A stretch of 64,000 nt of DNA from a virus (lineage: Duplodnaviria > Caudoviricetes), in the IMG/VR virus record IMGVR_UViG_3300012973_001074, positions 32,001 to 96,000 of that record; one strand, written 5' to 3'. Within the stretch, counting starts at the first letter, position 1. Each line of letters begins with the position of its first letter. Of this stretch, positions 14,040 to 57,205 are shown piece after piece. Under the pieces are notes generated by a model. That model was given only the letters and a program-made list of their open reading frames with translations, was not told the origin of the DNA and searched no databases. Both the position numbers and the translations under genes were made by a program.

Positions 14040-15044
14040 TCACGCCGCGAACACGAAGTCCAGGTACCGCATCGCGAGCGGCTGGTAGATCTTTACTCCG
14101 CCGCAGCGAGCGTGGCAGTTGTGGAGGAATTCGAAGACCTTCTGCTCGGGCGGCATGACCTCGAACTCCTGCGGAATGATCGCCTCGAGCACGTCGGGTG
14201 TCTTCCGGTACGAGATGGCGCGAGGCACGCCTCCGACGCCCGCCTTGTTGAGGCGGTGCCATGGTGCGATTGTCGTGATGTTCGGGTTGTTGCGGCGGAA
14301 GATCGTGAGGATCGACTCGCCCGTGAGCGCCGAGAACGGCGTCTGCTGGATGTAGCTGAAGTACCGGGTCGGCAGGAGGAGGGTGTCCGCCGCCCACTGA
14401 TTGTCGGAGTAGTTGCCGACTTCGGCCGCGAGGCGCGCGAGGTCAGCGAGGATGATGTCGGGGTCGAGCGGCGTCGTCGGCGGAGCGCCGGCGGCGGTGA
14501 GCCAGGCGCCTCCGCCCATGACGCCGAGCGCGGCGACGAAGGGGTTGTTCACGAGGCCGTTGAGGCCGACGTCCGGGAGCACGCCGTTCTCGTCGGCGAG
14601 CGAGCCGAACGCGAGGACCTCGTCGATGCCGCGCTCGATGAAGTCCGCGGCCGCGCGAGCTTTCGAGTCCGACAGCTGTACGCCGAGGCGCGCCGCTTCG
14701 CGTAGTTCGTTGATGTCCCAGCCGTAGGCGGCGCCGATCGGCGTCACCTTGCCGAGCACCTCCTCGGCCGCGACGTCGACGCGCGGGATGTCGTCGCTCT
14801 TGTACGTGATGAGCTTCGCCCGGCCGACGGGCTTCATGACCTTGTAGCTGTAGGTCGAAGCGCTCGCGGCGATGTCCGTCGCCTTCGGGGCAAACGTGCG
14901 CGCGAGCGTCGGCAGGAACGCGACTTCGTACATCTTCGCGCGCAGCTGCGTGAGCTCGCGCTCGAGGAACATCGTCTCGTTCGCGTCGAAGTGCTGCACG
15001 AGCGCTGCGCGCTGCAGACGCTTGTACTGGATCTCGTCGAGCAT
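14040..15044 (-). CDS. Major capsid protein (DUF2184 / encapsulin-like HK97 fold)
   Basis: HFDANETMFLERELTQL, YGWDINELREA, GLVNNP, DTLLLP, ARCGGVKIYQPLA motifs. Confidence 0.92.
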   Translation of the reverse strand: MLDEIQYKRLQRAALVQHFDANETMFLERELTQLRAKMYEVAFLPTLARTFAPKATDIAASASTYSYKVMKPVGRAKLITYKSDDIPRVDVAAEEVLGKVTPIGAAYGWDINELREAARLGVQLSDSKARAAADFIERGIDEVLAFGSLADENGVLPDVGLNGLVNNPFVAALGVMGGGAWLTAAGAPPTTPLDPDIILADLARLAAEVGNYSDNQWAADTLLLPTRYFSYIQQTPFSALTGESILTIFRRNNPNITTIAPWHRLNKAGVGGVPRAISYRKTPDVLEAIIPQEFEVMPPEQKVFEFLHNCHARCGGVKIYQPLAMRYLDFVFAA

Positions 15045-15229: not shown

Positions 15230-15718
15230 TTACGCGCCGTTGGGGCGGCCCGGGTAGTTGAGCTGCAGAACCGCGACGCCCGCGGCGCCGACGCCGCGAT
15301 AGACGCTGACGCCCGAGGGCTGCACCGCGCTTGCGTCGTCAGCGTCGTTGCGCCATCCGCCCTTCGTGCCCTCTCCTGCGAAGCGGACGAACGGAGTCGC
15401 CTGCGCGGCGATCGCCTGCTCCGTTGCGACCCAGACGCGGCCCTGCAGCATGACGGGCACGACGTCGCCCTGCTTGTGGCCCAGGCCGCTCGGACGCGTC
15501 GGGGTAGCGAGGGCGACGCCGCCCTCGCCATCGGTGACCTCCGCAGCGTCGTCGGCGAGCTCGCAGTAGCCGCCGCTCACGCGGACGTATGCACCGAAGG
15601 GAATGTCCTCCTGCGCGACGCAAGAGACCACGTCCTTCGGGCCCGTGTCGTAGATCAAGCCCGGGTAGCCGGCGCTCGGCTCCGCGGTGATCGCTGTCTG
15701 AACCACGTCGGCCATCAC
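15230..15718 (-). CDS. Capsid decoration/cement protein (gp24-like)
   Basis: AGYPGLI, IPFG, GDVVPVMLQGRVWV motifs; between protease and capsid. Confidence 0.8.
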   Translation of the reverse strand: MMADVVQTAITAEPSAGYPGLIYDTGPKDVVSCVAQEDIPFGAYVRVSGGYCELADDAAEVTDGEGGVALATPTRPSGLGHKQGDVVPVMLQGRVWVATEQAIAAQATPFVRFAGEGTKGGWRNDADDASAVQPSGVSVYRGVGAAGVAVLQLNYPGRPNGA

Positions 15719-17841
15719 TTACCTCCGTTCATCTGCTGCTGGCCGGTTTGCCAGAGCGACGCCGCCTTCTGGTCGCGATTGCGGCGCGCTCGGCTGACCG
15801 GATCGTTGTCGTTGGGGGTGTCGAACGAGTCGAGGTTGTGCACCTCGCGGACGACTGCGCGACGAACGCCGTTGATGCCGTTCGCGTCGCGGACCTGCTC
15901 GATCATCGCGTCGTAGCGGCTGCGGACGTAATCGTCCGACTTGCCCTTGTCGTCGAAGTCGGGGTTCTTCTTCCGGATCGCGTAGAGCATGACCTCGCGA
16001 TCGCTCTTCGAGTCGAGCTTCTCGAAGGGGTTCTTCTTCTTCGTGACGGTCTTCTTCTTCTTCTTGCCGTCTTCGTCGACCTCTTCCTCCTCGACGACCT
16101 CCTCCTCCTCGTCTTCGTCGGCGGAGCCGAACCAGCGGGCGACCTCGGTGAGGAGGCGGACGCGCGAGCGGACCTCGGACTGCGTGCGCTTCTTGAGCTC
16201 GTCGGCGTCCTTGTCCTTCGCCTTCTGGGCGTCGGCCTTGAACTCGTCGAGCGACTGCTTCGCCGCATCGCGAGCGCCCTCGGCCTCGTCGGCGCGCTTC
16301 TTCTCGGCGCTGAGATCTGCAGAGAGCTTGTCGATCTTCGCCTTCGCGTCGTTGCGGACCTGATCGACCTCGCGCCGGTGCATGTCGTCGAGCTTGTCGA
16401 GATGCGCCTGCGAACCGACCTCGTACTCCCTGCCGTCGATGCGGATGACCTTCATCGTTTGCTCCTGTTCTTCGTCGTGGGACACGCCCCAAGGGGGCCC
16501 CTGGTTATCGAGGCGCAGTCCCACTTCGGGTCCGGCCCGACCTCGGTTCGGCGGACAGAGCGCCGCGTGGTTGTAACGGATGTCTCTCTGGATGCAGTCG
16601 AAGCGCTCACCCTCGTAGGTGCCGCTCGTCATCTCGAGGCGGCAGCGGTAGCCGCAGGAGATCTCGGAGCGATCGCCGGTCTCGATCGCGTCGAGCGTTT
16701 CGGCGTCCTGCACGATGAGGTCGCTCGCGATGAACTTGCCGTCCTGGCGGACGCGCGCGACGTGCCCGAGAGAGACCCTGCGCCACGTCTCCGGTGTGAC
16801 CAGGCCCGTGTGGTCTTTGATGTCGATGACGGGCGCGTGCTCGAGCGTCGCGAGCGAGTCGGCCTTGAAGACCTCTTCGGGGAGCCGGAGTTCGCGACGC
16901 TGTGTGCCGTCAGGGTTCACGTACGTGAGCACGCCGGTGCGCGTGAGGCGCGCCGGGACGCGTGCGCCGCCGACCTGCGTGCGATCGACCTTGCCGAGAC
17001 GTGAGCGATCGAGGCGGAGGACGAGCTCGCCGGAGTCGAAGCGACGCTGCTCGTCGGCGTCAGAGGTCCACCGGCCGTCTTCCTCACGGGGGACGTTCAG
17101 GTGGCCTTCGCCGCTTCCGCCAGAGCCGCCGGCGCCATTGCTCCTGGCCGCGGCGGTGTTTTCGTCGGCATCGGCACGCTGCTCGAGGGCAAGCCGCCGC
17201 TTGCGAGTCTGGTGCATTGCGAGCTCCCTTGCTGCTTCCGAGACGCGCCTGCGCATCTCCTCGTCCGTGGGCGACGCCGCTTCGTCAGCGGCGTCGAGGT
17301 CGTCCTCGTCGTCCTCGTCGTCCTCGTCGGGCTGCGCTTCTGGGTTCAGGAACGGCGTGCCCGCGTTCTCATCGAGCCCGATCGGAACGAAGGAGACCTC
17401 GACGAGGCGAGCAGCGGGCGAGGCTGCGCGCGTCGTCGCGGCGGGGTTGTCGACCTCGGCCTCGTCGTCCTCGGGCTCGTCCTCGTCCTCGGCGCTGTCG
17501 GCCGAGCCTTCTGGTCCGCCGTCGTAGCCGATCGATACGGAGCGGATGACGCCGTCCTTCACGCCCTGCCAGACCTGCTCGGCGAGCGGGTTGACGGCCT
17601 CGCGCGCGAACGTGACACGCATGCGCAGGCCTTCGGCGGAGGCCTCCACGTCGTTCGCGAGACCGATCGGGAGCTCGGCGGCGTCGTGTGCCCAGAGGAT
17701 GACTGGGTTCTTGAGGAAGCGCTCGAGCTCCCATTCGGTGATCTGCACGCCGTCGACGGGCTCGGGCGACGACGCGATGATCCATACCGAGCGCGTGTAC
17801 TCGTCGACCTTCGCGACGCGCGCGAGGAGGTTCTTGGGCAT
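15715..17841 (-). CDS. Prohead protease/scaffold: HK97-type protease domain + DUF2213 domain + coiled-coil scaffold
   Basis: Start MPKNLLAR (17841). N-domain FLKNPVILWAHD..LPIG..IRSVSIGY..LVEVSFVP; second domain TRTGVLTY..ELRLPEEVF..EISCGY..QRDIRYNHAAL..RGRAG. Confidence 0.85.
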   Translation of the reverse strand: MPKNLLARVAKVDEYTRSVWIIASSPEPVDGVQITEWELERFLKNPVILWAHDAAELPIGLANDVEASAEGLRMRVTFAREAVNPLAEQVWQGVKDGVIRSVSIGYDGGPEGSADSAEDEDEPEDDEAEVDNPAATTRAASPAARLVEVSFVPIGLDENAGTPFLNPEAQPDEDDEDDEDDLDAADEAASPTDEEMRRRVSEAARELAMHQTRKRRLALEQRADADENTAAARSNGAGGSGGSGEGHLNVPREEDGRWTSDADEQRRFDSGELVLRLDRSRLGKVDRTQVGGARVPARLTRTGVLTYVNPDGTQRRELRLPEEVFKADSLATLEHAPVIDIKDHTGLVTPETWRRVSLGHVARVRQDGKFIASDLIVQDAETLDAIETGDRSEISCGYRCRLEMTSGTYEGERFDCIQRDIRYNHAALCPPNRGRAGPEVGLRLDNQGPPWGVSHDEEQEQTMKVIRIDGREYEVGSQAHLDKLDDMHRREVDQVRNDAKAKIDKLSADLSAEKKRADEAEGARDAAKQSLDEFKADAQKAKDKDADELKKRTQSEVRSRVRLLTEVARWFGSADEDEEEEVVEEEEVDEDGKKKKKTVTKKKNPFEKLDSKSDREVMLYAIRKKNPDFDDKGKSDDYVRSRYDAMIEQVRDANGINGVRRAVVREVHNLDSFDTPNDNDPVSRARRNRDQKAASLWQTGQQQMNGGK

Positions 17842-19614: not shown

Positions 19615-20238
19615 ATGAGAATTGTCACTCTCGTCGGATTCGTCGCTCTGGTCGGTGCGTGCTCCAGGGGGAACGCCATTGGTCCCGATGACCGGCACCC
19701 GGACGGGCAGCAGAACCAGGACCCTTCGAAGGACGATCCCTCCGACCCTTCGAAGCCGACCCCGTCAGACCCTTCGAAAGCCGGGACGAGCGGTTCGCGG
19801 TTGAAGGCGCGCTACTACGAGGGCGAGGACGGCTCGAAGCAGTTCATCGGCTGGTGGGACTCGCAGCGGCAGGAAGACTGTGTGATGGTGCCAGCCAAGG
19901 ATGGGAAGCTGCGCTGCCTACCGGCGGCAAATGTCGCCATCACTGGCTACGCAGACGCGAACTGCAGCGTGCCTGTCGTGACGGTCCGCAAGGGCTGCGC
20001 TGCGCCGTCGGCGGCAATCGTTATGGAAACGTCAGGGAACGTATCCTGCAGCCTGGGATACGCGTACGCCGCGTACGGTGTAGACCCTGCGAAGTTCACC
20101 GGGACGTTGTACGGAGGCTCGCCTTCGACCTGTAAGGTCACAACGGGCGAACCGTACGCCGAAACCATGGATTTTCACCGACTCAGCTCGGAAATTCCTC
20201 CGACCTCGTTCGTAGCGGTGAACCAGACGCACGACTAG
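19615..20238 (+). CDS. Cys-rich lipoprotein (moron)
   Basis: Signal peptide with lipobox VGAC; SGSRLKARY..WWDS..C..DGKLRCLP; opposite strand to head genes. Confidence 0.75.
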   Translation: MRIVTLVGFVALVGACSRGNAIGPDDRHPDGQQNQDPSKDDPSDPSKPTPSDPSKAGTSGSRLKARYYEGEDGSKQFIGWWDSQRQEDCVMVPAKDGKLRCLPAANVAITGYADANCSVPVVTVRKGCAAPSAAIVMETSGNVSCSLGYAYAAYGVDPAKFTGTLYGGSPSTCKVTTGEPYAETMDFHRLSSEIPPTSFVAVNQTHD

Positions 20239-21137
20239 TTGAGGCCGACTTCTTCGAGCTCGGGGAGGACGGGGTAGGCGATGCATCGGCAGTTGATGGG
20301 CTCGCCCGGGTGGCCCTCTTCGGGGTGACCGTCGGCCCACGTGAAGCGCGCGCCTTCGAGGTCCTTGTGCTCGGGCCGCACGCGCTCGTCGTTGCTCGTC
20401 GTCCAGATGTACTCATCGATGCCCGCAGCGGTTTGGCGCTCGCGGGTGATGTTCGCGTTGAGCGTGAGGATCTGGTCCCGCGCGAGCGCCTCGGCGCGCG
20501 ACAGCGTGACATCGTCGAGCTGGCGCGCGATCTCCTTGGCGAGCGTCTGCGCCGTGTGGCCTCGGCCCTCGCGAAGGATCCTCTCGATCTTCGCGAGCTG
20601 GTCCTTCTGCATGCCCGTGATGCGGGCGACGTTGTCCTTCCGCCAGCCGTCGATGAGCCACTTGAGGTGGGGCTCCTTCTCGACGTTGATCCCGAGGCGG
20701 GAGAACTCGCGCTGCGAGTGCTGCACGACGCGCTTGGCTGCGCGGTTCGATGTTCGTGAGAAGCCGGGTTCGTTGAAGGCATCGAAGCCTGCGAACTCCA
20801 GGTCCTCGAGAAGCTCGTCGAGCTCCGAGTCCTCGAGCAGCTCCAGGTCGAGATCCTCGAGCTCGTCACCCGGTGCATCGAGCCGCTCGGCAGCGTCGGT
20901 CTTCGTGACGCGGCGCTCAGCGGCGGCGGCGAGTTTTGGAAAGACGACCTTCCCGACGGCTCGTGCGAAGGCGGCCGCGATGCGGCGAAGCTCCAGCACC
21001 ATCATCAGCTCGGCCCCGCGCGGCAGTTGAGGTGAGCGGGTGCGGCGGACGGCGTTGCTGGGAGGGCGTTGGGTCCTCTTCGGGAGCCTCGGTCGGCGAG
21101 GCCTTCGCGGCGGATGGCGCAGTGCTGCGCGAGCCAT
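20235..21137 (-). CDS. MuF / SPP1 gp7-like head morphogenesis protein
   Basis: RAEALARDQ, YIWTTSNDERVRPEH, HPGEPINCRC motifs. Confidence 0.92.
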   Translation of the reverse strand: MARAALRHPPRRPRRPRLPKRTQRPPSNAVRRTRSPQLPRGAELMMVLELRRIAAAFARAVGKVVFPKLAAAAERRVTKTDAAERLDAPGDELEDLDLELLEDSELDELLEDLEFAGFDAFNEPGFSRTSNRAAKRVVQHSQREFSRLGINVEKEPHLKWLIDGWRKDNVARITGMQKDQLAKIERILREGRGHTAQTLAKEIARQLDDVTLSRAEALARDQILTLNANITRERQTAAGIDEYIWTTSNDERVRPEHKDLEGARFTWADGHPEEGHPGEPINCRCIAYPVLPELEEVGLN

Positions 21138-21765: not shown

Positions 21766-22299
21766 ATGACGAGCAAGACGAAGACGAAGACGAGGCCGAA
21801 GACGAAGACGAAGGCGAAGGCGAAGGCGAAGGACCCGTTCGACGACTTCCCGGCGCGCCTCAAGGCGGCGCGAGAGCGGTGCGGGTATGGAGTGAACGAG
21901 CTAGACCGGCTCGTGGGCGTCTCCGTCGGGCAGACCTCGCGGCTCGAGCTCGGTGCGCGGCCGCGCGTGAGCATAGAGACCGTCGCGAAGTTCGCGCGCG
22001 TTCTCGATGTCACCATCGACTGGCTGTGGAACGGACCGGTCCCTTCGGGAGGAGTGAAGGTCCTGCAGCGGGGGGCTCGGAGGGAGCCGCGTTACGTGCC
22101 CTCGACCCTGCGGCGAGCCATCGGGAGGCCTCTTGAGGAAGTCGCCGAGAAGGCGGGTATCGGACTGACCAATGTGGCGCGCGTCGAGGCCGGGGAGAAC
22201 GCGACCCTCGCGGACCTCGCGGGCTTCGCCAAGGGTATCGACATGAAGCTTGAAGTCGCCTTCGTCGCAGGCGAGCGGCGCTACCGCATCGACGTGTGA
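21766..22299 (+). CDS. XRE-family regulator with two HTH domains
   Basis: RLKAARERCG..ELDRLVGVS..SRLE..IDWL and LRRAIG..EEVAEKAGIG..VARVEAG; AT-rich promoter region 21670-21730. Confidence 0.8.
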   Translation: MTSKTKTKTRPKTKTKAKAKAKDPFDDFPARLKAARERCGYGVNELDRLVGVSVGQTSRLELGARPRVSIETVAKFARVLDVTIDWLWNGPVPSGGVKVLQRGARREPRYVPSTLRRAIGRPLEEVAEKAGIGLTNVARVEAGENATLADLAGFAKGIDMKLEVAFVAGERRYRIDV

Positions 22300-22516
22300 G
22301 CCGGCTCTTGCGCGACCGCGATGGCGTTCGTAGGTTGCGACGCCTCGGAGCCCACACGCAAACTGTCCTCGGTAGGCGAGGGCTGCTTTAGGGAAGCAGA
22401 TGCGCCGGTGCGACTCCGGCCTCGCGCTCCGAGCACTCGGTCCCGCTGGCAGACGCTGGCGGGGCCGTCGCGTGTCGGGGTTGAGTCCGCCTGGAATTCG
22501 CGATGGACTTGCGGCA

Positions 22517-23167
22517 ATGGAGTCCGCCGTCATCACTGCTCTCGCTGCGATCGGCGGCGTGGTCCTTGGTGCATACCTGACACGGAAGAACGCCTTGGCC
22601 GTCGCCGAACTGTCGGCGAAGACGGCACGGGAGCAGGAGCTTGAGCGCGAACGGAGAGCGCTCGCCCGCGACCGGCTGGAGCGGCAGTTCGAAGCAAGGC
22701 TCGCCGTGCAGCGATTCGTTCTGAACAACTTGAACGGCCCTGGTTGGTCGGACCCGGGCGTCCGAGAGGAGGCAGCTCAGATTGCGGGACGGGTAGCATC
22801 CGCCTTCACTGCGCCACGCTTCGCAGCGTTCCTCTACGAGGTGCTCTTCTACGAAGTCGCGCTCCCGATCCGTCCTGGAATGTTCCAGAAGGCGCCACGA
22901 ACGATGACGGAGAGCCAGCTCTTGGCGCTCTGGAACCGAAGCGACAAGGAGATGTTGCGCGTCATCGAAGAGACGGTGCGCGTGTCCGGCTATGGCGAGC
23001 TGGAGATCCCGAAGGTTCCTTCGAAAGATGAGGCAGTCAAGGAAGCGCCGCGGACGCGAATCGCGTCCCTGTCCGCGGCGTCCGCGAGCGAGCCAACTGC
23101 AGCAGACCCGGAGGCTTCGGAGGAGGCGGCAGCGCTATCGGACTCGCGGCGCGCTCGGGGCGGCTGA
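22517..23167 (+). CDS. Membrane-anchored hypothetical protein (moron)
   Basis: Start MESAVITALAAIGGVVLGAYL, a single N-terminal TM followed by coiled coil. Confidence 0.6.
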   Translation: MESAVITALAAIGGVVLGAYLTRKNALAVAELSAKTAREQELERERRALARDRLERQFEARLAVQRFVLNNLNGPGWSDPGVREEAAQIAGRVASAFTAPRFAAFLYEVLFYEVALPIRPGMFQKAPRTMTESQLLALWNRSDKEMLRVIEETVRVSGYGELEIPKVPSKDEAVKEAPRTRIASLSAASASEPTAADPEASEEAAALSDSRRARGG

Positions 23168-23193
23168 GCCGGGCTGTCATGCTGGCGCTTCGC

Positions 23194-23214
23194 TTTCGGA
23201 CGCGGTGTCTGAAA
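23194..23214. promoter_or_regulatory. Operator copy TTTCGGAC-N5-GTCTGAAA
   Basis: Near-perfect palindrome matching the CGGAC-N5-GTCCG core repeated in the early region. Confidence 0.6.
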
Positions 23215-23306
23215 CCGAAAGCGGCCCAGAAAGCCCGTCATTTCGCCGTGTAGCGCGACCGGTCGCCGCGCGGTACACTTCTAGTGGACCCGGAAGGAGG
23301 GTCTGG

Positions 23307-23498
23307 ATGAATGCGAAGTCCCCGAAGACGGTAGAGGCACCGAAGCCAGGCAAGTCGAGCCTGGACATGTTCAACGAGGCCTACGCGAAAGCGATGGCCG
23401 AGGAAGCCGAGGAGACCGAGAACCTCCCGAAGGCCTTCACGCCGGAGGAGAGCCTGGTCGAGGTCGTGGACGACGACGACAAGCACTTCGGCGTCTAG
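23307..23498 (+). CDS. Small acidic protein (63 aa), convergent with the zeta-like kinase gene
   Basis: AAGGAGG Shine-Dalgarno at 23294-23300; stop overlaps the neighbouring stop (CTAG). Confidence 0.65.
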   Translation: MNAKSPKTVEAPKPGKSSLDMFNEAYAKAMAEEAEETENLPKAFTPEESLVEVVDDDDKHFGV

Positions 23499-25447
23499 CC
23501 GCCGCGTTTCCTCTGCAGCTTGACCTTGTGGCCGTTGGCCGCGTCGTAGACCGTGAGGTTCGGCGCGGCCGCGTGAATTTTGTCGCGGGCCTTTTCGATC
23601 TTCGCGTACGTGCCGCGGATGACGTGCTCGGGCACGTAGCGCCCTGAGCCCTCGGCGCGCGAGGCGGCGCGCCGGACGCCCTCGTCCGGGTTCAGGTCAG
23701 GGTGGTGCACGTGGACGTCGTAGCCCTTCGCTTCGAGGTGGTTCATCAGCGCGATGAACTTGTCGGCGTTGCCGCCCGTGCCGTCGATGATCACGTGGTG
23801 CCCGCGGTCGACGGCGCGGTCCCGGATCTGCTTGGCGACGGCGCTCGACTCCTCGTGCACCTGCGCGGCCGCGCCTCGGAACGTCGGGCCGGCGCTCGGG
23901 TCCTTCGGAACGCTCGCCTTGTACTCGGGGAGCTGGGACTTCACTTCGTCCGGATCGACGTGGACGAAGCGCGACGTGTCGAGACCGTGTTTCGCGAGCT
24001 TGCCGAGCACGACGCCTTTGCCGCTCGCCGGTCCGCCCATCGTGAGGATCGCGATGGGCTTCTCGCCGAGCTCGCCGGCGGTCTTCTTGCCATCGAAGGC
24101 GGGCGCGATGAGCTCGCGTTCGTGAAAGGCGGCGCGCTCGGGCGAGGGCTTGCCGCCTTCGTCCGGGTGCTTGTCGTAGTGGTCCTTCCAGGTCTCGTTG
24201 CTCTTGCCCATCAGCTGGCCGGACCACGAGCCGTCGGGGTTCTCGGTGCCGACCCAGGTGCGACCGGGCTTGAGCGGTTCGTCCTTCGCCGGGGCGGGCT
24301 GCTTCTGCGCGCTCGGCGGGACCTTGTCGTGCGTGCTCGAGAAGTCCCCCGCGGGCCCGCCGCTGCCGCCTCTACCACCGACCTTGTGCAGGCCCGGGCC
24401 GGGCGGTCCCTCGCGGTCGCTGCCGCCGCTGCCGGAGCCGATGCTCGTCCAGCGTCCCTCCTCGTCGCGCGGAACGCCTTCCCACTCGTCCGCGTCCGTG
24501 CGCTCTTCACCCGCTTCGAGACCGAATTGCGCGGCGAGCTGCCTCCACGCCCATTCGAGCTGCTTGTCGGTGAGCTTCGGGTTCTCGCGCTTCGCCTCGG
24601 CGAGCCACTGACCCTTGTACTTGCGTGGGTTCGCTGCGAGCTCGTCGAGGAACTCGTCGCGCGCACGCTTTTCCGTGTCGCTCACGCCCGGCTTCGCATC
24701 GGTGCGCGTCTTTTCGAGGCGCATCGTGACGTAGTCGGGGTGATCGAACCGGTCGTAGTCCCAGTCGGTCGCCGCGTACTCAGAGTTGAACGCATCGCGC
24801 GTCGCCTCCTTGAAGCCGACCTTCTCGTAGAGCTTGTTGAGGGTCGGCCCGTAGCACTCGACGTAGTTGACGCCGTAGTTGTCGACGACGTGACGAAGGA
24901 GCTCGACGCCGATGCCCTTCTGGCCACCCTGGTTGAAGAGCGCTGTCGCCTCGATGCGCCCGTCACCGTGGTCTTTGACCGCGACGCCGGCCTTGCCGTC
25001 GGGGCTCATGACGCAGCTCATCTTCCCCAGGTCTTCGACCCCATAGTGCGAGACGTGATGCTTGAACGGGGAGTCCTTGAACGCAGAGTCGAAGGCCGCC
25101 TTGAACTTGTCGGCCTTCTCGCGCACGGGCGAGACCGCGGCGCGCGCGCCCTCGGCGCTCTTCCAGTCGCCCGAGCTCGAGCCGCCGCCCTTGCCGCCGG
25201 GACGGTGCACACCGATGCCCGCGTCGGTCCCCGCTGAGGTGTCGCCGCCGCTGCTCGTCCAGAGGCCCTTCTCGTCGCGCGGGACCTCCTCCCAGCCTTC
25301 GGCGTCCGTGCGTTTCTGCTGCTTGTCGCGAGAGCCGGTGAGCCCTTCCTGCTCCTTCCTGGCCGCCGCGCCGGGCTCGGGCTCGTCGCCGTCGAAGACG
25401 AAGCCGCCGAGCTCGGACGAGATGAACCGGTCCGCGCGCGTCGTCAT
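23495..25447 (-). CDS. Multidomain virion-associated effector: GNAT-like acetyltransferase + zeta-toxin-like P-loop kinase
   Basis: GNAT-like ALFNQGGQKGIGVELL..LNKLYEKVGF; zeta-like ILTMGGPASGKG..VDPDEVK..LPEY..VHEESS..IIDGTG; translationally coupled to portal. Confidence 0.8.
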   Translation of the reverse strand: MTTRADRFISSELGGFVFDGDEPEPGAAARKEQEGLTGSRDKQQKRTDAEGWEEVPRDEKGLWTSSGGDTSAGTDAGIGVHRPGGKGGGSSSGDWKSAEGARAAVSPVREKADKFKAAFDSAFKDSPFKHHVSHYGVEDLGKMSCVMSPDGKAGVAVKDHGDGRIEATALFNQGGQKGIGVELLRHVVDNYGVNYVECYGPTLNKLYEKVGFKEATRDAFNSEYAATDWDYDRFDHPDYVTMRLEKTRTDAKPGVSDTEKRARDEFLDELAANPRKYKGQWLAEAKRENPKLTDKQLEWAWRQLAAQFGLEAGEERTDADEWEGVPRDEEGRWTSIGSGSGGSDREGPPGPGLHKVGGRGGSGGPAGDFSSTHDKVPPSAQKQPAPAKDEPLKPGRTWVGTENPDGSWSGQLMGKSNETWKDHYDKHPDEGGKPSPERAAFHERELIAPAFDGKKTAGELGEKPIAILTMGGPASGKGVVLGKLAKHGLDTSRFVHVDPDEVKSQLPEYKASVPKDPSAGPTFRGAAAQVHEESSAVAKQIRDRAVDRGHHVIIDGTGGNADKFIALMNHLEAKGYDVHVHHPDLNPDEGVRRAASRAEGSGRYVPEHVIRGTYAKIEKARDKIHAAAPNLTVYDAANGHKVKLQRKRGG

Positions 25448-28365
25448 TGGACCTCCTCGGCATCGATGAGAAGACGCGGCGGGCGACCGATCTCGAGGTC
25501 GACCTGCGCGTAGCTTTCGCGCTTCACCGACCTGATCCGGAACCGTGTTCCCTTCGGGAGGAGGACCTCGGCTTCGTTCTGGTACTCGGACGCGCCGGAG
25601 ACCGTGACGCCGCTCTTGTGCTGCACGCGAATCACGGCATCGAATCCGTGGGGCAGGACCGCTGCGGTGGCGCCGCGATCGAGGTCCTCCTTTTCGAGGC
25701 TCGCGAACTGGGTCGCGACGTCTCGGTGATCGGAGAAGCTCGTCATCGAGTCGAGCGTGAACGTCTGCGAGTTGAGCATCTTCTCGACGACGCGCGGCGG
25801 GACCTGCTTGAGACCGCGGTAGACGGTCCCTGGCGTTGGGGGCACGTCGCGGAAGATGCCGTTCAGGTGCTCGATCGCCTGCTGCGCGCGCTCGGTGTGG
25901 TCCGCCGCGGACGAGGCCCCGTGCAGGAACTGCTTAGCGAGCTCCTCGGGCGTGCGGACGTGCTGGTCGCCATAGCGATCGGGCTGGGAGCGATACAGCG
26001 TCCCGGCTTCGTTCAGCGTGTAGCCGGACTCGGCGATCCGCTGGTCGAGATGCGCCTGCGTCGCGCGCGTGACCTCTTCGGGATCCGCTCCCGATTCGAG
26101 CTTGCGGATCGAAGTGTCGTAGCCCTTCGTGTACTGCGAGAGCGCATCGTAGTGCTCATCGCGGAGCTTGCTCGCGACGGCCTCCGCAGCGTCGAGGTGA
26201 GCGCGCTCGTTGAACGTGTTGCGCGTGTCTTCCTCGGTTGCGGCCTGCGAGCGGATGACGCGCGCGAGGGCCGCTCTCTCGCTCGCTCGCTCTGCAATCG
26301 GAGGCGGCTCGCCATTCTTGAAGAGGTGCTCTTCGTCGAAGTCTGCGAGCGCCTTCGCCTGCTCGCGCGACAGGCCGCGTGACTCGAGGCGATCGATTCG
26401 CTCGGCGACGTCGCCTGATACGCCCTCGCTCTCGACGATGCTGCTGATGCGCGCGCTCTTGTCGCCAGACCGAGGCTCAGAGCTCGAGTCACCGTCCTTC
26501 GGCGTGAACCGGCCCCCATCGGGCTCGCCAGCCGGCACGCGTTCGACGTTCGCCTCGTCCCAGTCGTCGGTGCGGACCGCGTCGTCGAGGAAGCGGATCT
26601 CGGTCTTGCCGCCGTGTCCGTGGATCTCGCGGACCTCGTCGAGCGAGTCGAAGAGCGTCGTCGAGCGGTGCTTCGTGAGCCAGCGCATGGCGACGGTGCC
26701 GTCCTCGAAGACGGCTCCGTGAGCGACGACGCCGGTACCGGAGACGCCGGTCTCGTCCTCGATGCGGTAGAGCTCGAAGAGGCGCGGACCGCTCGTCGCG
26801 TCCGTGCGCACGCGCGCGCGCTCGTAGTCGTCTTGGGTCGGCTTCGGCTTCTGCGCGACGCCGGGCGGAAGCTGCGGGGGACCTCCCTGCTGGGGGCCTC
26901 CCTGCTGCGGGGGACCTCCCTGCGGGGGCGGACCTCCCATGCCCGGAGGGGCGCCCGGTCCGCCCATCTCCGTCGGGTCGGGCGGGTTCTCCATTTGCTC
27001 GAGGTCGGCCTCGAGCACGGCCTGGCGCGCCTTGATGGCGTCGTCGGAGAGCCGGACCTCGTCCTCGAAGCCGCCGGCGATGCCGAAGCGCGCGATGGCG
27101 ACCTCCTCGGGCAGCAGGACCTGGGCCTGGATGTACGTCGAGTCCCGCTGCGCGATCGCGCTCTGGCGCTGCGCCTGCACGAGCGGTGTCTCGGTCCAGA
27201 GCGGGGTGAACTTGACCGTGAGCGACTTTGGCCGCGTGCGCGTCGGCGACGCCTTCGACTGCAGCCAGATGACGAGCAGGCGCCGGATCTTCGGCGCGAG
27301 CATCGTCGTCTGCTCGGCGCGGATGCGGTCGTAGAACCAGCGGAAGTCGCTCTCGCCCGTGGCGTTCATGCCGGCGGGCGACTGGCCCATCAGGATGGTG
27401 ACGGGGATCTGCACCGCCGCGGCGAGGCGGAGCATGAACTTTTCGAGCGTCGCGGGGATCTCGCTGAACGAGACGGAGTGCCGCGTGAACTCCTCCTTCG
27501 CGTCAGCATCGACGACGATGGCGCGCATCACCGAGCGGTAGAGCTCGATGATCTGCAGGCGCGCCTGGAGCTTCGCCTGCTCGTTGGCGCCGATCATCTC
27601 GGCGAGACCGGTCATCTTGAAGATGGCCTGGTTGCCGTCGGTGAGCAGCGTCTCGACGGCCGCCCATCCGGTGTTGAACGAGCGCAGCACGTTGTACGCG
27701 CGCTGCAGGACGGACATGTCCCAGCCGAAGAGCTGCTGCCGCTCGCGGATGCCCGTCGATGCTCCGCGGAAGAGGATGAGCCGCGACTCGTGGACAAGCA
27801 TCGTCGGCGACGACTTGGCCCCGGCCGCGGTGACGGCGTACGTCTTGGGCGTGCCGAACTTCGGGCCCGGTTCCTCGTAGAAGTCGACGGGCCAGAGAAG
27901 TCGGCGATCGAGCGGGTAGAGCCACTCTACGTCGTTCGCGCGCGCGGGCTTGAGCGGCTTCCAGGCCTCCTGGCCGTCGTCGGCACCGATGAGGACGGCG
28001 CCGCCGCCGTAGCAGCGGCCCCACTTGGACCCTTCTTGGAAGTTGCCGCGGACGTCGAGCGCGTCGAACTTCTCCTGGATGACCTCGTCGAGCTTCGGGT
28101 CGCCGGTCTCGATCGAGAACGGCTCGCGAAGCATCTCCTGCGGGACGACGTCGACCATGCGCGCCGCCATGTCGTCTGCGTGATAGAGCGCGGAGAGCTC
28201 GACATCCTCGAGCATCCGGTTCGGTAGGACGTAGCCGTAGGTCGTCTTGTCGCGCGCGGTGCCGAAGCCGGTGACCTCGTTGATCCACGCGTCGAAGCGC
28301 GACGTAGCGCGTGCGCGGAAGGCGCCGAGCGCCTCGCGCATCTTGATCGACGCGGAGTTCAGCAT
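25444..28365 (-). CDS. Portal protein (DUF1073/HI1409-like) fused to a C-terminal ADP-ribosyltransferase
   Basis: Portal: VHESRL, IPVTILMGQSPAGMNATGESDFRWFYDRI. ART: YT, VYRG, TSFS, NEAEVLLPKGTRF (R-S-ExE). Confidence 0.88.
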   Translation of the reverse strand: MLNSASIKMREALGAFRARATSRFDAWINEVTGFGTARDKTTYGYVLPNRMLEDVELSALYHADDMAARMVDVVPQEMLREPFSIETGDPKLDEVIQEKFDALDVRGNFQEGSKWGRCYGGGAVLIGADDGQEAWKPLKPARANDVEWLYPLDRRLLWPVDFYEEPGPKFGTPKTYAVTAAGAKSSPTMLVHESRLILFRGASTGIRERQQLFGWDMSVLQRAYNVLRSFNTGWAAVETLLTDGNQAIFKMTGLAEMIGANEQAKLQARLQIIELYRSVMRAIVVDADAKEEFTRHSVSFSEIPATLEKFMLRLAAAVQIPVTILMGQSPAGMNATGESDFRWFYDRIRAEQTTMLAPKIRRLLVIWLQSKASPTRTRPKSLTVKFTPLWTETPLVQAQRQSAIAQRDSTYIQAQVLLPEEVAIARFGIAGGFEDEVRLSDDAIKARQAVLEADLEQMENPPDPTEMGGPGAPPGMGGPPPQGGPPQQGGPQQGGPPQLPPGVAQKPKPTQDDYERARVRTDATSGPRLFELYRIEDETGVSGTGVVAHGAVFEDGTVAMRWLTKHRSTTLFDSLDEVREIHGHGGKTEIRFLDDAVRTDDWDEANVERVPAGEPDGGRFTPKDGDSSSEPRSGDKSARISSIVESEGVSGDVAERIDRLESRGLSREQAKALADFDEEHLFKNGEPPPIAERASERAALARVIRSQAATEEDTRNTFNERAHLDAAEAVASKLRDEHYDALSQYTKGYDTSIRKLESGADPEEVTRATQAHLDQRIAESGYTLNEAGTLYRSQPDRYGDQHVRTPEELAKQFLHGASSAADHTERAQQAIEHLNGIFRDVPPTPGTVYRGLKQVPPRVVEKMLNSQTFTLDSMTSFSDHRDVATQFASLEKEDLDRGATAAVLPHGFDAVIRVQHKSGVTVSGASEYQNEAEVLLPKGTRFRIRSVKRESYAQVDLEIGRPPRLLIDAEEVQ

Positions 28366-28442: not shown

Positions 28443-28754
28443 CTATTTCGGCGCGTTCAGCGGGCGGCGGCGCATCCGCTCGATGCGTCGCCGCGTCTGT
28501 TCGAGTCCCCGCGAGATAGCCCTCCGCCGATCGTCAGGGCTGAGAACGCGAAAGGAGGCAGCACCGGTCGGCGGAGGAGTCTCAGAGATGCGCCGCGTCG
28601 GCGGTGGCTCGTCGTCGTCGCGGCAGCCGACGAGAGCGCGGAAGCCTGGGGTGCACGGGTCGCGCGCGTCGCACGAGAGCGCGAAGCCTGCGCCGCTTTC
28701 CGGCCCGCACGTGCAGTCCTCGCCCATGTCGCAAGTGAGCGCGTGGACCTTCAC
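28443..28754 (-). CDS. Small Cys-rich hypothetical protein
   Basis: GTG start overlapping the TerL stop (GTGA); HALTCDMGEDCTC. Confidence 0.45.
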   Translation of the reverse strand: MKVHALTCDMGEDCTCGPESGAGFALSCDARDPCTPGFRALVGCRDDDEPPPTRRISETPPPTGAASFRVLSPDDRRRAISRGLEQTRRRIERMRRRPLNAPK

Positions 28755-30139
28755 GTGCCGGTCCTCTTGCCCAGCGCTTCGACCATCGGGTTGACCGTCG
28801 AGCAGGCATGCAGCGCCAGGGCGAGGGCCCAGGCTCGGTCGCCGTGCCCTTCGCTCGTGCGCGGCGTCTCGTACTTGACGTTGCCTGCGCTCGTAATGAC
28901 GCGCTTGATCGACGCGAGCTCCTTGCGGAGAAGCTCGGCGGTCTTCGGCTCGGCGAACGGAAGGACCTTGTCCTCGGCGGGGAGCCGGACGTTCTTCGCC
29001 GCGGTCGCCGCGTACAGGCCCGTCGCGAGCTCCTCTTTCATGTTCGGAGTGAAGTCGACGAGCTCGACGCGCGGGCGACGGTGCGGGACGTCGATCCTCT
29101 CCGAGTGCTTCCTCTTGATGCGTTCGGCCGGGAAGTAGCCGAGGCCCGTAGAGTCGATGCAGAGGCGCTTGAGGTGGTACTTCTCGAAGGCGCGCGAGAC
29201 CATGGCCTCGAGCCCCTCGGAGTCGGTCCGCTTCATCGTCTCGACGTGGACGACGTAGCGGACGCCTCTCACGAGACGGACGACGAGCAGGACGGACAGG
29301 TCGACCTCGCGGCCGATGTCGAGGCCTGCGTAGTAGTCGCCGTACGCGAGGCCCGGAACGTCGTAGCTGACGCTGCAGGCCTTGATCTGGTCGGTCGGGA
29401 TGTACTGCAGCTCGTTGTCGAGGAACGAGCAGCGGAACATCTGCGCGAACAGGCGCGGGTCGCCCTTCGCCAGCTTCCAGCACTTGCGGAGATCGACTGG
29501 GTAGCCCTGCGAGATCGCGAGCTCGATCGGAATCGAGTGCGGGGCCCATCCGCTGTTCGGCTCGAGGGCCTTTTCCCAGAGGACATGGAAGTCGTTCCCG
29601 ATGCCGTTCGGCGTCGAGACGACCCGCATCTTGTAGCCGAGGAGCGTGACGGGCGCGGCCGCGTCCCAGACCTTGGCGGCGTGCTCCTGGTAGGCGAACT
29701 CGTCGAGGAAGACGTTGCCGGTGAAGCCGCGGCCACCGGAGGAGGGGAGCGCGAGGATCCTTCCGCCGCTCGCGAAGGTCAGCTCGTTCGAGTTGTCCTT
29801 GCGCCCGAAGCGCGCCATCTCGGAGCCCAGGGCCTGCAGCACCTGCGCGTGCTTGCGCGCCTTGTCGAGGACCTCGACGGCCTCGCGGTCGCCGACGGAG
29901 ATGACCGTGGTGAGCTCGCCGTGGAAGGCGCCCCAGAGAACGCCGACGGCGCTCGTCGTGTGCGAGGTGCCGATCTGGCGAGACTTGTTCGCGATCGCCG
30001 CGTCGTTCTGCTCGAACAGCCAGTCGCGCTGGAACGGGTAGAAGCTGCCGGCCCAGGCGGCGAGCGCCGAGAACTCACTCTCGGGGAGCGCTTGCTGGTA
30101 CTTCGCCAGCGCCTGCGCCGCTTGACTCGGAAGCCTCAT
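28751..30139 (-). CDS. terL: Terminase large subunit
   Basis: Start MRLPSQ (30139); KSRQIGTS (Walker A), RGFTGNVFLDEFA (Walker B), VSTPNG, GLDIG, HGDRAWALALA. Confidence 0.95.
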   Translation of the reverse strand: MRLPSQAAQALAKYQQALPESEFSALAAWAGSFYPFQRDWLFEQNDAAIANKSRQIGTSHTTSAVGVLWGAFHGELTTVISVGDREAVEVLDKARKHAQVLQALGSEMARFGRKDNSNELTFASGGRILALPSSGGRGFTGNVFLDEFAYQEHAAKVWDAAAPVTLLGYKMRVVSTPNGIGNDFHVLWEKALEPNSGWAPHSIPIELAISQGYPVDLRKCWKLAKGDPRLFAQMFRCSFLDNELQYIPTDQIKACSVSYDVPGLAYGDYYAGLDIGREVDLSVLLVVRLVRGVRYVVHVETMKRTDSEGLEAMVSRAFEKYHLKRLCIDSTGLGYFPAERIKRKHSERIDVPHRRPRVELVDFTPNMKEELATGLYAATAAKNVRLPAEDKVLPFAEPKTAELLRKELASIKRVITSAGNVKYETPRTSEGHGDRAWALALALHACSTVNPMVEALGKRTGT

Positions 30140-30695
30140 CCGGTGGTCCCTGCTGCTCGGGCGGCGGCGGCGGCGGTTGCTCGAGCCACGCGGGATCGAT
30201 GGGCGCCGGCGGGACCGTGACCTCGCCGACGGCGGGGCCTCGCGCGCCGTGCTCGCCGAAGAGCTCCCGCACGAGGCGGGCGGCCTCGACGACCGTGGGC
30301 GCGTCGCCCATGAGCGGGCCGCCGTTTGCGCCGGTGAGCTGCTGCTGTTTCGGCGCGTCGAGCCCGAGGTACGCGGAGATCCGCGTCTGGATGGCGAGCA
30401 TCCGGTCGATGGCGGCGAGCTCGCCACGCTGAGCGCGCTGGTAGAGACCGCCGCGCAGGACCGCTTCGAGCCTCGCGACCTCGATCCAGCGCTGCTCGTC
30501 GACCGTCTCGTTCGCCTCCTGCCGGAGTCGCTCGACTGCCTTGCGGAACACCTTGAAGGGACCGGACGCGTTCGCGTAGCCGAGCTCCTTCGCGATCATC
30601 GACCACGTGAGCCCGGCGCGCCGGCGCTGGATGATCGACTCTTCGAGCTCGAGGTTCGCGACCTCGCCCGCGTCACGCTTCGACGTGTTGCCCAT
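30075..30695 (-). CDS. terS: Terminase small subunit-like HTH protein
   Basis: RRAGLTWSMIAKELGY HTH, YLGLDAPKQQQLTGANGGP; overlaps the TerL start. Confidence 0.75.
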   Translation of the reverse strand: MGNTSKRDAGEVANLELEESIIQRRRAGLTWSMIAKELGYANASGPFKVFRKAVERLRQEANETVDEQRWIEVARLEAVLRGGLYQRAQRGELAAIDRMLAIQTRISAYLGLDAPKQQQLTGANGGPLMGDAPTVVEAARLVRELFGEHGARGPAVGEVTVPPAPIDPAWLEQPPPPPPEQQGPPDEASESSGAGAGEVPASAPRE

Positions 30696-31329
30696 CGGTT
30701 CGCTCGCGGTGCGCGGCGCCGAGTCCTTCGAAGACTATCGCCGTATACGTCTGCTTGTTCGAGCCCTTGCCCGTGCTGCCGCCGCTCGCGTTCCAGGCCT
30801 GCAGCGGGTGGACGTTCGAACGCGCGAAGAACGAGCGGATCGCCATCGGCGTGATCGCGACGTCGGCCTTGCGCCCGACCTTCAGCGACCCGAGACCGGA
30901 CAGGCTCGCGAGCGCGTGGCTCGCGAAGCCCCAGCGCGTCTTGAGGTCCGACCACGTGAGGATGACCGCGCCGCGTTCGCCCGCTTGCCAGGTGCGGCGC
31001 ACGCTGAGGATCGTGAGCTGCTCCCACGGCTCGCCGAACGCGTCGAGGTCGAAGACGTTGTACGCCTGGAGATCGATCGCGCGCATGACCGTGCGGTTGT
31101 CGCCGACGAAGCGCCGCCGCGGATCGAACGGCTCGTAGACCTCGTCGCATCCGACGTACGAGGCAGCGCGCTTCCAGACGGCTCGCCACATCTCGCCGCT
31201 CGGGCCGCAGTACGCATCGAACACATGGGCCGGCTTCACGTGCTCGAGCACGCTCATGCGCATGCCGACCTTCGCCCTGAGCGCGAGAGCGCCGTTGTGC
31301 TCTCCCTTGATCCGATCCGCGCGGCTCAT
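30673..31329 (-). CDS. SAM-dependent methyltransferase-like protein
   Basis: VFDAYCGPSG (motif I-like), YVGCDE, FDLDAFGEPW (motif IV-like). Confidence 0.6.
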   Translation of the reverse strand: MSRADRIKGEHNGALALRAKVGMRMSVLEHVKPAHVFDAYCGPSGEMWRAVWKRAASYVGCDEVYEPFDPRRRFVGDNRTVMRAIDLQAYNVFDLDAFGEPWEQLTILSVRRTWQAGERGAVILTWSDLKTRWGFASHALASLSGLGSLKVGRKADVAITPMAIRSFFARSNVHPLQAWNASGGSTGKGSNKQTYTAIVFEGLGAAHRERTDGQHVEA

Positions 31330-57200: not shown

Positions 57201-57205
57201 GCGGT

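What the first reader, a model, noticed from the sequence alone, without database searches (positions are those of the whole stretch)
25444..26574. Portal protein fused to an Arg-type ADP-ribosyltransferase
Seen: after the ~470-aa DUF1073 portal core and a Gly/Pro/Gln linker, the ORF continues without a stop into an ART domain with the R-S-ExE signature (VYRG, TSFS, NEAEVLL). Established: ExE marks Arg-specific mono-ARTs (VIP2/C2/Alt type), which in phages are usually MuF-fused or standalone. Inference: fusion to a dodecameric portal would load about 12 ART copies at the ejection vertex for host takeover or anti-defence. The MuF here carries no toxin extension.
Basis: partly seen in the sequence, partly recalled or inferred. 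Interest (0 to 1): 0.8.

Follow-up and report, generated by a model that had tools for sequence, protein, structure and literature searches.

The report
Phage portal carrying Acb5 and ADP-ribosyltransferase
The only portal (DNA-entry ring) gene of this uncultured soil phage is a real 973-residue fusion that also carries an anti-CBASS nuclease domain (Acb5) and an intact arginine-type ADP-ribosyltransferase, so it is a new example of the known but untested habit of phages to hang swappable "cargo" enzymes on head proteins.

Summary
Window 25444-28365 (minus strand) is one 973-aa ORF. It has a complete Phage_portal_3 domain, a Gly/Pro/Gln linker and a C-terminal R-S-ExE ADP-ribosyltransferase (R850, S876-x-S878, E931-x-E933). 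A confident model of the ART module matches Vis, Certhrax, C2-I, CDTa, iota and Tre1.

[quoted passage not shown] All three experimentally essential residues are kept.

Portal relatives at 43-66% identity carry other C-terminal cargo: Zeta kinase, RelA/SpoT, HNH or NUDIX. Each cargo module opens with a conserved [R/K]-x-D site and a "W-x-E..PR..G-R-F" tag. The next gene (GNAT-like plus Zeta kinase) uses the same tags.

About eight of 143 relatives of this ART sit on portals. 31 of the 67 mid-length ones scanned sit on MuF. Effector fusions to portals, ARTs included, are mentioned by Iyer et al. 2017 and 2022. This scan has also met portal-cargo fusions on other DNA.

Verdict: a new member of the portal/MuF-anchored polyvalent effector class. 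Packaging inside the head is likely. Release and injection are inferred, not shown. I did not find the portal-Acb5 combination and its flanking sites described.

The parts
25444..28365 (-). Whole gene: portal-Acb5-ART polyvalent protein, 973 aa (P0001). Its TGA stop overlaps the ATG of the next gene (ATGA), with GAGGAGG just upstream.
26965..28365 (-). Portal region, aa 1-467 (Pfam Phage_portal_3 at aa 56-409; PHROG 146 at aa 20-446). Sequence relatives with solved dodecamer structures: Pam3 8hds, E217 8fvh, Pa193 9b41.
26818..26964 (-). Gly/Pro/Gln-rich flexible linker, aa 468-516. Hypervariable among relatives.
26797..26808 (-). R-T-D-A site (aa 520-523), 4-8 residues before the Acb5 fold. 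[R/K/H]-x-D-[A/G] is kept at this place in most of the 42 relatives (about 38 by eye). Candidate processing site (inferred).
26572..26817 (-). Acb5 (anti-CBASS 5, PF26761) domain, aa 517-598. R534, W562 and H584 correspond to the essential R10, W38 and H61 of Acb5A.
26506..26574 (-). Junction tag, aa 598-620 (R-T-D-D-W-D-E ... P-D-G-G-R-F). A divergent copy of the tag that opens each cargo module in relatives and in the next gene.
26251..26505 (-). Spacer, aa 621-705: low-complexity stretch plus helices leading into the ART module. Its C-terminal end (from about aa 690) and the start of the ART module align with P0003 and P0123-P0127.
25447..26250 (-). ART module, aa 706-973: helical lobe plus R-S-ExE catalytic core. 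R850 = 25816-25818; S876 = 25738-25740; E931 = 25573-25575; E933 = 25567-25569.
23495..25447 (-). Next gene, translationally coupled: 650-aa cargo protein (P0002) with two strong tags (aa 46 and 316), a weak GNAT-like domain and a Zeta-toxin kinase (aa 461-638).
28751..30139 (-). Large terminase (Terminase_6N and 6C), upstream of the portal.
20235..21137 (-). MuF head protein without any effector extension (PF04233 at aa 192-286 of 300; the gene call gives 255 aa).
15715..17841 (-). 708-aa protein combining a prohead-protease-like region (weak Peptidase_S78 match) with DUF2213/Pa193_gp24 (scaffold-like). Candidate processing enzyme. Contains one weak tag match.
14040..15044 (-). Major head protein (PHROG 264).

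Best explanation
This is the phage's structural portal protein, doubling as a carrier of two enzymes. Twelve copies of the 973-aa chain form the portal ring. The C-terminal extension lies inside the capsid, as the C-terminal barrel of related portals does. It carries an Acb5 domain, which cleaves the CBASS alarm nucleotide 3'3'-cGAMP, and an R-S-ExE mono-ADP-ribosyltransferase predicted to modify arginine in host proteins. The enzymes are therefore built into every head at fixed stoichiometry. They are most likely cut free at the conserved R-x-D sites that flank Acb5 and precede the tagged ART module, by the head protease, and then leave with the DNA at infection. Once inside, they would blunt CBASS signalling and reprogramme or disable host proteins, as T4 Alt does. 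The gene belongs to a hypervariable cargo locus between portal and MuF, in which modules are shuffled between the portal's C-terminus and the next gene. What is shown: the ORF, the three domains, their catalytic residues, the ART fold, cargo swapping among relatives, and the conserved sites and tags. What is inferred: location inside the capsid (about 0.75), proteolytic release and injection (about 0.4-0.5), arginine specificity and the host targets.
For: One portal domain and a single portal gene in the record, placed between TerL and the head genes. ART: PF03496 above its cut-off. phmmer finds Vis at 4e-5, aligning YRG, the STS-like motif and ExE. R850, S876, E931 and E933 are conserved in 51 relatives. 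The AF2 model has pLDDT 88.6 and pTM 0.85. Foldseek top hits are Vis 8e-11, Certhrax, C2-I, VahC, CDTa, Tre1, HopU1, iota Ia and C3. Acb5: precomputed PF26761 hit and PHROG 7499 at E 8e-27. It is 58% and 57% identical to the two aligned 71-72-aa standalone proteins (Streptomyces phage Phredrick, Mycobacterium phage Sejanus), and the host spread of hits is similar to that in the Acb5 paper. R534, W562 and H584 correspond to the essential R10, W38 and H61 and are invariant in 42 portal-fused copies. Cargo swapping: relatives carry Zeta_toxin, RelA_SpoT, HNH_3 or NUDIX after the same portal, most after portal-Acb5. In relative L010 the same ART module sits behind a Zeta kinase in the next gene. 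Sites and tags: RTD occurs 5 times in P0001 plus P0002 against 0.5 expected, out of 9 in the whole proteome. [RKH]-x-D-[AG] is conserved just upstream of Acb5 in most of the 42 relatives, about 38 by eye, although the linker before it is hypervariable. It recurs before each downstream module. Literature: effector fusions to MuF and portal are interpreted as head-packaged and injected (PMC5512222, PMC9503650). A polyvalent protein has been detected in phi24B virions (bioRxiv 10.64898/2026.04.10.717836). The portal C-terminal barrel is inside the head in Pa193 (PMC11456595).
Against: There is no experimental or proteomic evidence for this phage, and its host is unknown (soil metagenome contig). 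A domain still joined to the portal cannot be ejected, and cleavage at R-x-D is only inferred from conservation. I know of no prohead protease shown to cut there. The protease assignment of the 708-aa protein is weak (S78 E 7.5e-4, below its cut-off). The tag in front of the ART is a divergent copy (domain E 0.021 against my tag profile). The ART Pfam score is only just above threshold. Targets and NAD-dependent activity were not tested.
Confidence: 0.6

Rival explanations
1. The cargo is never released or injected. The fused enzymes act in the producing cell late in infection, as part of the free pool of portal protein, with Acb5 destroying cGAMP made when late proteins trigger CBASS and the ART modifying host proteins. 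What ends up in the capsid stays tethered and is functionally irrelevant.
For: Portal genes are expressed late and in excess. A portal protein acting as a cytoplasmic antagonist of host physiology has been shown for T7 Gp8 (PMC13483052). Standalone Acb5 proteins work when expressed in the cytoplasm (bioRxiv 10.1101/2025.07.12.664507). Many relatives end right after Acb5 with no downstream site.
Against: The conserved R-x-D sites on both sides of Acb5 and the tags in front of every module are hard to explain if the chain is never processed. The same cargo types occur on MuF, and the cited genomic studies infer that MuF and its fused effectors are packed in the head and injected. Anti-CBASS activity only late in infection may come too late for a signal that triggers abortive infection.
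Confidence: 0.25
2. The ART is an interbacterial polymorphic toxin of a temperate phage, like MuF toxins or Bacteroides Bxa. It would be released or delivered to kill competitors, with the lysogen protected by immunity genes.
For: The record is classed as a provirus. The C-terminal domain is swapped among relatives in the manner of polymorphic toxins. Fold relatives include the antibacterial toxin Tre1. Bxa is a prophage ART with two immunity proteins (PMC11699363). Three genes of unknown function lie on the opposite strand just downstream of the cargo genes.
Against: No small ORF follows the ART; the next gene overlaps by 4 nt and is another effector. No ADP-ribosylhydrolase or Macro domain was found in the 115.5-kb record. 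The co-fused Acb5 is a counter-defence enzyme, not a toxin. The carrier is an essential structural protein.
Confidence: 0.08
3. The fusion is an artefact: a sequencing or assembly error, for example in the repetitive Gly/Pro/Gln linker DNA, joined separate genes.
For: The linker is low-complexity DNA. Both assemblies that hold the ORF are identical over 13.8 kb and probably share reads. I could not lay raw reads on it.
Against: All three domains and the tag are in one frame with coding-like GC3 throughout. 42 listed relatives have portal and Acb5 in one chain, and many continue into cargo after the same junction motif. Four independent portal-ART chains of the same portal family exist.
Confidence: 0.03
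4. The ART domain is a decayed, non-catalytic remnant used only as a structural or binding module.
For: The Pfam score is marginal (24.6 against 23.4). The subfamily has almost no representatives in cultured phages.
Against: R, S-x-S and E-x-E are all present and conserved across 51 relatives. The model is confident and superposes on active toxins.
Confidence: 0.04

Closest known systems
Phage polyvalent proteins and portal- or MuF-fused effectors (Iyer, Burroughs, Anand, de Souza, Aravind 2017, PMC5512222; Iyer et al. 2022, PMC9503650)
   Same: Several effector domains in one chain, encoded among head genes of a terminase-portal phage. These papers note portal fusions to PBECR, 2H, InPase and Nudix domains, and ARTs fused to head-associated or portal proteins. 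Zeta-like kinase cargo is also described.
   Different: Those reports are comparative genomics without experiments. The combination portal + Acb5 + ART is not mentioned in the passages I read. Nor are the constant Acb5 module, the flanking R-x-D sites or the recurrent tag. Acb5 was named only in 2025.
MuF polymorphic toxins of temperate phages (Jamet et al. 2017, PMC5576092) and Bacteroides Bxa (PMC11699363)
   Same: A head-module carrier domain with a swappable C-terminal toxin, often an ART (14% of MuF toxins). 31 of 67 mid-length relatives of this ART are MuF-fused.
   Different: The carrier here is the portal, and the MuF of this phage is bare. No small downstream immunity ORF and no ADP-ribosylhydrolase were found.
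Acb5 anti-CBASS nuclease (bioRxiv 10.1101/2025.07.12.664507)
   Same: 58% and 57% identity to the two aligned standalone phage Acb5-like proteins. The R, W and H residues needed for activity are conserved.
   Different: The described Acb5 proteins are free proteins, about 72 aa in the homologs I aligned, predicted to form homotetramers. Here the domain is embedded in a 12-copy structural protein between a flexible linker and further cargo.
T4 Alt (packaged ART injected with the DNA)
   Same: An R-S-E class ART carried in the head for immediate action on host proteins. Weak profile similarity to PHROG 802/832 Alt-like families (E about 1e-6).
   Different: From my own knowledge, Alt is a separate internal protein targeted to the prohead and trimmed by the T4 head protease gp21. 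It is not part of the portal, and there is no close sequence relationship.
Vis, Certhrax, C2-I, CDTa, iota Ia, VahC and Tre1 (R-S-ExE mono-ARTs with solved structures)
   Same: Same fold and catalytic triad.
   Different: Only 12-17% identity in the fold alignments. Those are secreted or T6SS-delivered toxins with other delivery domains. The target of the phage enzyme is unknown.

Membership tests
R-S-ExE mono-ADP-ribosyltransferases (Pfam ADPrib_exo_Tox PF03496; C2/C3/VIP2/Vis group) | Profile match above the curated threshold | tested here: met
   24.6 bits against a cut-off of 23.4, which is marginal. phmmer to Vis 4xzj gives E 4.4e-5. 143 relatives at E<=1e-3.
R-S-ExE mono-ADP-ribosyltransferases (Pfam ADPrib_exo_Tox PF03496; C2/C3/VIP2/Vis group) | Catalytic Arg, S-x-S motif and E-x-E (ARTT) motif | tested here: met
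   R850, S876-F-S878 and E931-A-E933. S876 and E933 are invariant, and R850 and E931 are at least 90% conserved, in 51 sequences.
R-S-ExE mono-ADP-ribosyltransferases (Pfam ADPrib_exo_Tox PF03496; C2/C3/VIP2/Vis group) | ART fold | tested here: met
   AF2 model with pLDDT 88.6 and pTM 0.85. 149 PDB matches at E<=1e-3; every one of the best matches listed is an R-S-E ART toxin.
R-S-ExE mono-ADP-ribosyltransferases (Pfam ADPrib_exo_Tox PF03496; C2/C3/VIP2/Vis group) | NAD-dependent transfer to arginine | not testable with these tools
   Needs a biochemical assay.
Phage portal (Pfam Phage_portal_3 / DUF1073) | Full-length portal domain, next to the large terminase, and the sole portal of the genome | tested here: met
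   Profile 2-356 of 357 at E 8.5e-72. TerL lies upstream. No other portal family was found in the record. The Portal_Mu search had no ringing control, so it is uninformative.
Phage portal (Pfam Phage_portal_3 / DUF1073) | Dodecameric ring with the C-terminus inside the capsid | not tested
   Inferred from solved homologs with 12 chains (8hds, 8fvh, 9b41) and the Pa193 description.
Acb5 (PF26761, anti-CBASS 5) | Sequence membership | tested here: met
   Precomputed PF26761 hit without a weak mark. PHROG 7499 at E 8e-27. 161 phage records hit, with a host spread similar to the paper's. PF26761 itself was not returned by the Pfam scan I ran.
Acb5 (PF26761, anti-CBASS 5) | Residues equivalent to R10, W38 and H61 of Acb5A | tested here: met
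   R534, W562 and H584. The numbering was verified on Mycobacterium phage Sejanus gp39. All three are invariant in 42 portal-fused copies. The Acb5A sequence itself was not available to me.
Acb5 (PF26761, anti-CBASS 5) | Homotetramer with a two-fold active site; cleavage of 3'3'-cGAMP | not testable with these tools
Activity needs an assay.
Polyvalent proteins (Iyer et al. 2017) | Two or more conflict-related domains in one chain, in a virion-gene context of a terminase-portal phage | tested here: met
   Acb5 plus ART on the portal, between TerL and MuF.
MuF polymorphic toxins (Jamet et al. 2017) | N-terminal MuF domain | tested here: not met
   No PF04233 in P0001. MuF is a separate 255-300-aa gene.
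MuF polymorphic toxins (Jamet et al. 2017) | Small immunity ORF immediately downstream of the toxin | tested here: not met
   The downstream gene overlaps by 4 nt and encodes a 650-aa GNAT-like/Zeta protein.

The most novel reading that the evidence does not exclude
The portal is a polyprotein. A head protease cuts at the conserved R-x-D sites, freeing twelve roughly 75-residue Acb5 units, enough for three tetramers, and twelve tagged ART modules inside each capsid. The same tag marks the separately encoded GNAT-like and Zeta modules for packaging. The phage would then inject a pre-made anti-CBASS nuclease and a host-modifying ART together with its DNA, before any phage gene is expressed. The R-x-D site plus the W-x-E..PR..G-R-F tag would be a general, undescribed loading and processing signal for head cargo in many uncultured phages.
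Probability: 0.3. Interest if true: 0.75.

Novelty: new member of a known kind. Interest (0 to 1): 0.5.

Why it matters
Effector domains fused to portals or MuF have been catalogued by comparative genomics. In what I read, nobody has shown how they are loaded, cut or delivered. This gene is a compact test case. It has an essential structural carrier, a domain with a recently proven biochemical activity (Acb5 cleaves cGAMP), an ART with an intact active site, and conserved candidate processing sites and tags. These could be mutated one at a time.

If the cargo is pre-packed and injected, phages can neutralise nucleotide-signalling immunity before expressing any gene. The portal would then set the dose at twelve copies.

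The tag and site grammar could also be used to find packaged effectors in metagenomic phages.

Tried and rejected
- **Single-sequence fold.** An AF2 run on aa 668-973 without an alignment gave a poor model (pLDDT 45.8). I replaced it with an alignment-based run.
- **Genome collection.** A scan with the protein alone found nothing. A scan with alignment A2 gave only four loci, in MAGs of Chthoniobacterales, Pseudomonadota, Polyangia and Phycisphaerales.
- **Sequencing runs.** The only run listed held 0.06 of the words, and no RNA holder was listed. Laying it gave short fragments, most under 90% alike, apart from one 211-base piece identical to the window. None spanned a junction. Read-level confirmation of the fusion was therefore not obtained.
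- **Immunity candidates.** No ADP-ribosylhydrolase or Macro domain was found in the record. The opposite-strand 63-aa and 216-aa proteins have no Pfam or PHROG match. The Atlas search of the 216-aa protein found only unnamed clusters.
- **Cultured phages.** No INPHARED record covers more than 45% of the protein. Only Planktothrix phage PaV-LD, in a gene annotated as a minor head protein, matches the ART module.
- **Tag literature.** I found no paper describing the tag or the R-x-D site. I did not run a dedicated literature search for the tag; a word search of this scan's own notes found none that held all the words.
- **Alt membership.** I considered filing the ART as an Alt family member and rejected it. 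There are only weak PHROG matches, and the carrier logic is different.
Full report
**What is in the sequence**

The finding lies at the 3' end of a minus-strand ORF, window 25444..28365, which encodes 973 residues. The frame is coding-like throughout: GC3 is 0.94, 0.78, 0.94, 0.81 and 0.86 in its five segments.

Pfam finds a complete Phage_portal_3 domain at aa 56-409 (E 8.5e-72, profile 2-356 of 357). It also finds a C-terminal ADPrib_exo_Tox match just above the curated threshold. PHROGs agree on the portal (PHROG 146, E 1.8e-93) and give weak Alt-like ART matches.

The window is part of a 115.5-kb IMG/VR provirus record cut from a 149.8-kb soil-metagenome contig. This is the only portal gene I could find in that record.

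**The ART module**

phmmer of aa 706-973 against PDB sequences finds the Vibrio toxin Vis (E 4.4e-5). The alignment places YRG on YRG, TSFS on TSTS and EAEVL on EAEVL. It also finds the T6SS toxin Tre1.

A whole-library phmmer search gave 143 relatives. In an alignment of 51 of them, S876 and E933 are invariant, and R850 and E931 are at least 90% conserved.

With that alignment, AlphaFold2 gives a confident model (pLDDT 88.6, pTM 0.85). Its best PDB matches are all R-S-E ART toxins: Vis at 8e-11, then Certhrax, C2-I, VahC, CDTa, Tre1, HopU1, iota Ia and C3.

So the domain has the fold and the full catalytic set of an arginine-type (ExE) mono-ART. Activity and target remain untested.

**A third domain that was missed**

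Between the Gly/Pro/Gln linker (aa 468-516) and the ART region lies an 80-residue domain. It matches PHROG 7499 (E 8e-27) and carries a precomputed Pfam hit, PF26761 "Acb5".

Acb5 is a recently described family of small phage proteins. They are predicted to form homotetramers, they cleave 3'3'-cGAMP into 2'3'-cyclic mononucleotides, and they thereby inhibit CBASS. R10, W38 and H61 are essential (bioRxiv 10.1101/2025.07.12.664507).

tblastn of this segment hits 161 phage records: Streptomyces 128, Bacillus 19, Haloarcula 10 and Mycobacterium 4. This host spread is similar to the one reported in that paper. In the genomes I checked, the hits are standalone ORFs of 71-72 aa.

In the alignment with Mycobacterium phage Sejanus gp39, whose numbering gives R10, W38 and H61, the equivalents here are R534, W562 and H584. 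All three are invariant in 42 portal-fused copies.

**Relatives and context**

Portal relatives at 43-66% identity carry different C-terminal cargo. HNH_3, RelA_SpoT, Zeta_toxin and NUDIX all occur, many relatives have unknown extensions, and many end right after Acb5.

The closest homolog of the ART module (36% identity) sits at the end of a 1065-aa Zeta-kinase protein. That protein is encoded just after a portal-Acb5-plus-cargo gene, with one 66-aa ORF between them, in a syntenic head module.

In this phage, the gene after the portal overlaps it by ATGA, with a GAGGAGG ribosome-binding site in front. It encodes a 650-aa protein with a weak GNAT-like match and a Zeta kinase domain. MuF follows further on and is bare.

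The stretch between portal and MuF is therefore a variable cargo locus. Modules there move between the portal's C-terminus and separate genes.

**Junction grammar**

Each cargo module is preceded by [R/K]-x-D, then a short tag of the form (W/F)-(D/N/E)-E..(H/E/Q)-(P/E)-R...G-(R/K/Q)-(F/W), then a glycine-rich linker. There is one such junction before the ART, two in the next gene and up to five in a 2407-aa relative.

RTD occurs 9 times in the predicted proteome, and 5 of those are in these two proteins, where 0.5 is expected.

A [R/K/H]-x-D-[A/G] site is kept 4-8 residues before the Acb5 fold in most of the 42 relatives (about 38 by eye), although the preceding linker is hypervariable. It recurs right after Acb5 whenever cargo follows.

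Excision at these sites would yield a unit the size of a free Acb5. This is an inference. I found no described protease with this specificity, and the local candidate (the 708-aa S78-like plus DUF2213 protein) is only weakly assigned.

First-stage notes on this same genome pointed at the R-x-D sites and the tag. I tested them only as far as stated here.

**How common, and what is known**

Of the 143 ART relatives, four carry the same portal family. Their architectures are portal-NUDIX-ART, portal-NUDIX-...-ART, portal-MuF-ART and portal-...-ART.

Among the 67 mid-length relatives, 31 are MuF-fused, three carry Portal_Mu and one carries a P23-45 portal barrel. No cultured phage in INPHARED has the fusion.

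Iyer et al. describe polyvalent proteins and note fusions of PBECR, 2H, InPase and Nudix domains, and of ARTs, to MuF or portal. They interpret these as head-packaged, injected effectors (PMC5512222, PMC9503650). Jamet et al. describe MuF toxins, 14% of which are ARTs (PMC5576092). Bxa is a studied prophage ART with two immunity proteins (PMC11699363). A polyvalent protein has been detected in phi24B virions. In Pa193, whose portal is a distant sequence relative (E 4.5e-7), the portal's C-terminal barrel lies inside the head.

Earlier reports of this scan found portal-cargo fusions on other DNA, carrying topoisomerase IB, a zinc protease or a Zeta-like kinase.

**Verdict**

The fusion is real, and the ART assignment is sound. 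The gene is a new member of the portal/MuF-anchored polyvalent effector class, with an added Acb5 domain. Neither the Acb5 paper nor the passages of the polyvalent-protein papers that I searched for 'portal' mention Acb5 on a portal.

Packaging inside the head is likely from geometry. Release by proteolysis and injection is the best-supported mechanism, but it is unproven. The main rival is late cytoplasmic action, for which the T7 portal offers a precedent (PMC13483052).

No immunity gene is evident, which argues against a Bxa-like interbacterial toxin role.

Noticed in passing
window 23495-25447 (-): A 650-aa cargo protein, translationally coupled to the portal gene. It has two strong junction tags (aa 46 and 316), a weak GNAT-like domain whose homolog is fused to the portal in relative P0030, and a Zeta-toxin kinase that is fused to the portal in relatives P0013 and P0014.
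   Followed up: partly
window 21766-23498 (+): Three genes on the opposite strand are inserted between the cargo gene and MuF: 63 aa (23307-23498), 216 aa (22517-23167) and a 177-aa XRE-type HTH regulator (21766-22299). The first two have no family match. They could be immunity or moron genes.
   Followed up: partly
window 15715-17841 (-): A 708-aa head protein with a weak Peptidase_S78 match at its N-terminus and DUF2213/Pa193_gp24 (putative scaffold) behind it. It contains one weak match to the cargo tag profile.
   Followed up: partly
window 35691-37900 (-): Two adjacent Ser/Thr protein kinase genes (Pkinase) inside the provirus record, a few kb from the terminase.
   Followed up: no
window 31326-32084 (-) and 30075-30695 (-): A ParB-like nuclease or methyltransferase-associated domain protein, and a protein matching PHROG 645, lie just upstream of the terminase. 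No small terminase subunit was identified.
   Followed up: no
window 56001-60000: GC content drops from about 0.67 to 0.61. Another first-stage note suggests an undescribed three-gene defence operon here.
   Followed up: no
L011:1-4128: A relative phage with portal-Acb5-Zeta also encodes a Tad2-like (anti-Thoeris) protein, a NUDIX protein and a dGTP diphosphohydrolase-like protein upstream of its terminase. The lineage appears rich in counter-defence genes.
   Followed up: no
P0146 (2407 aa, metagenomic): A giant portal polyprotein: portal-NUDIX-...-ART plus an M90-like peptidase. Five junction tags separate its modules.
   Followed up: partly
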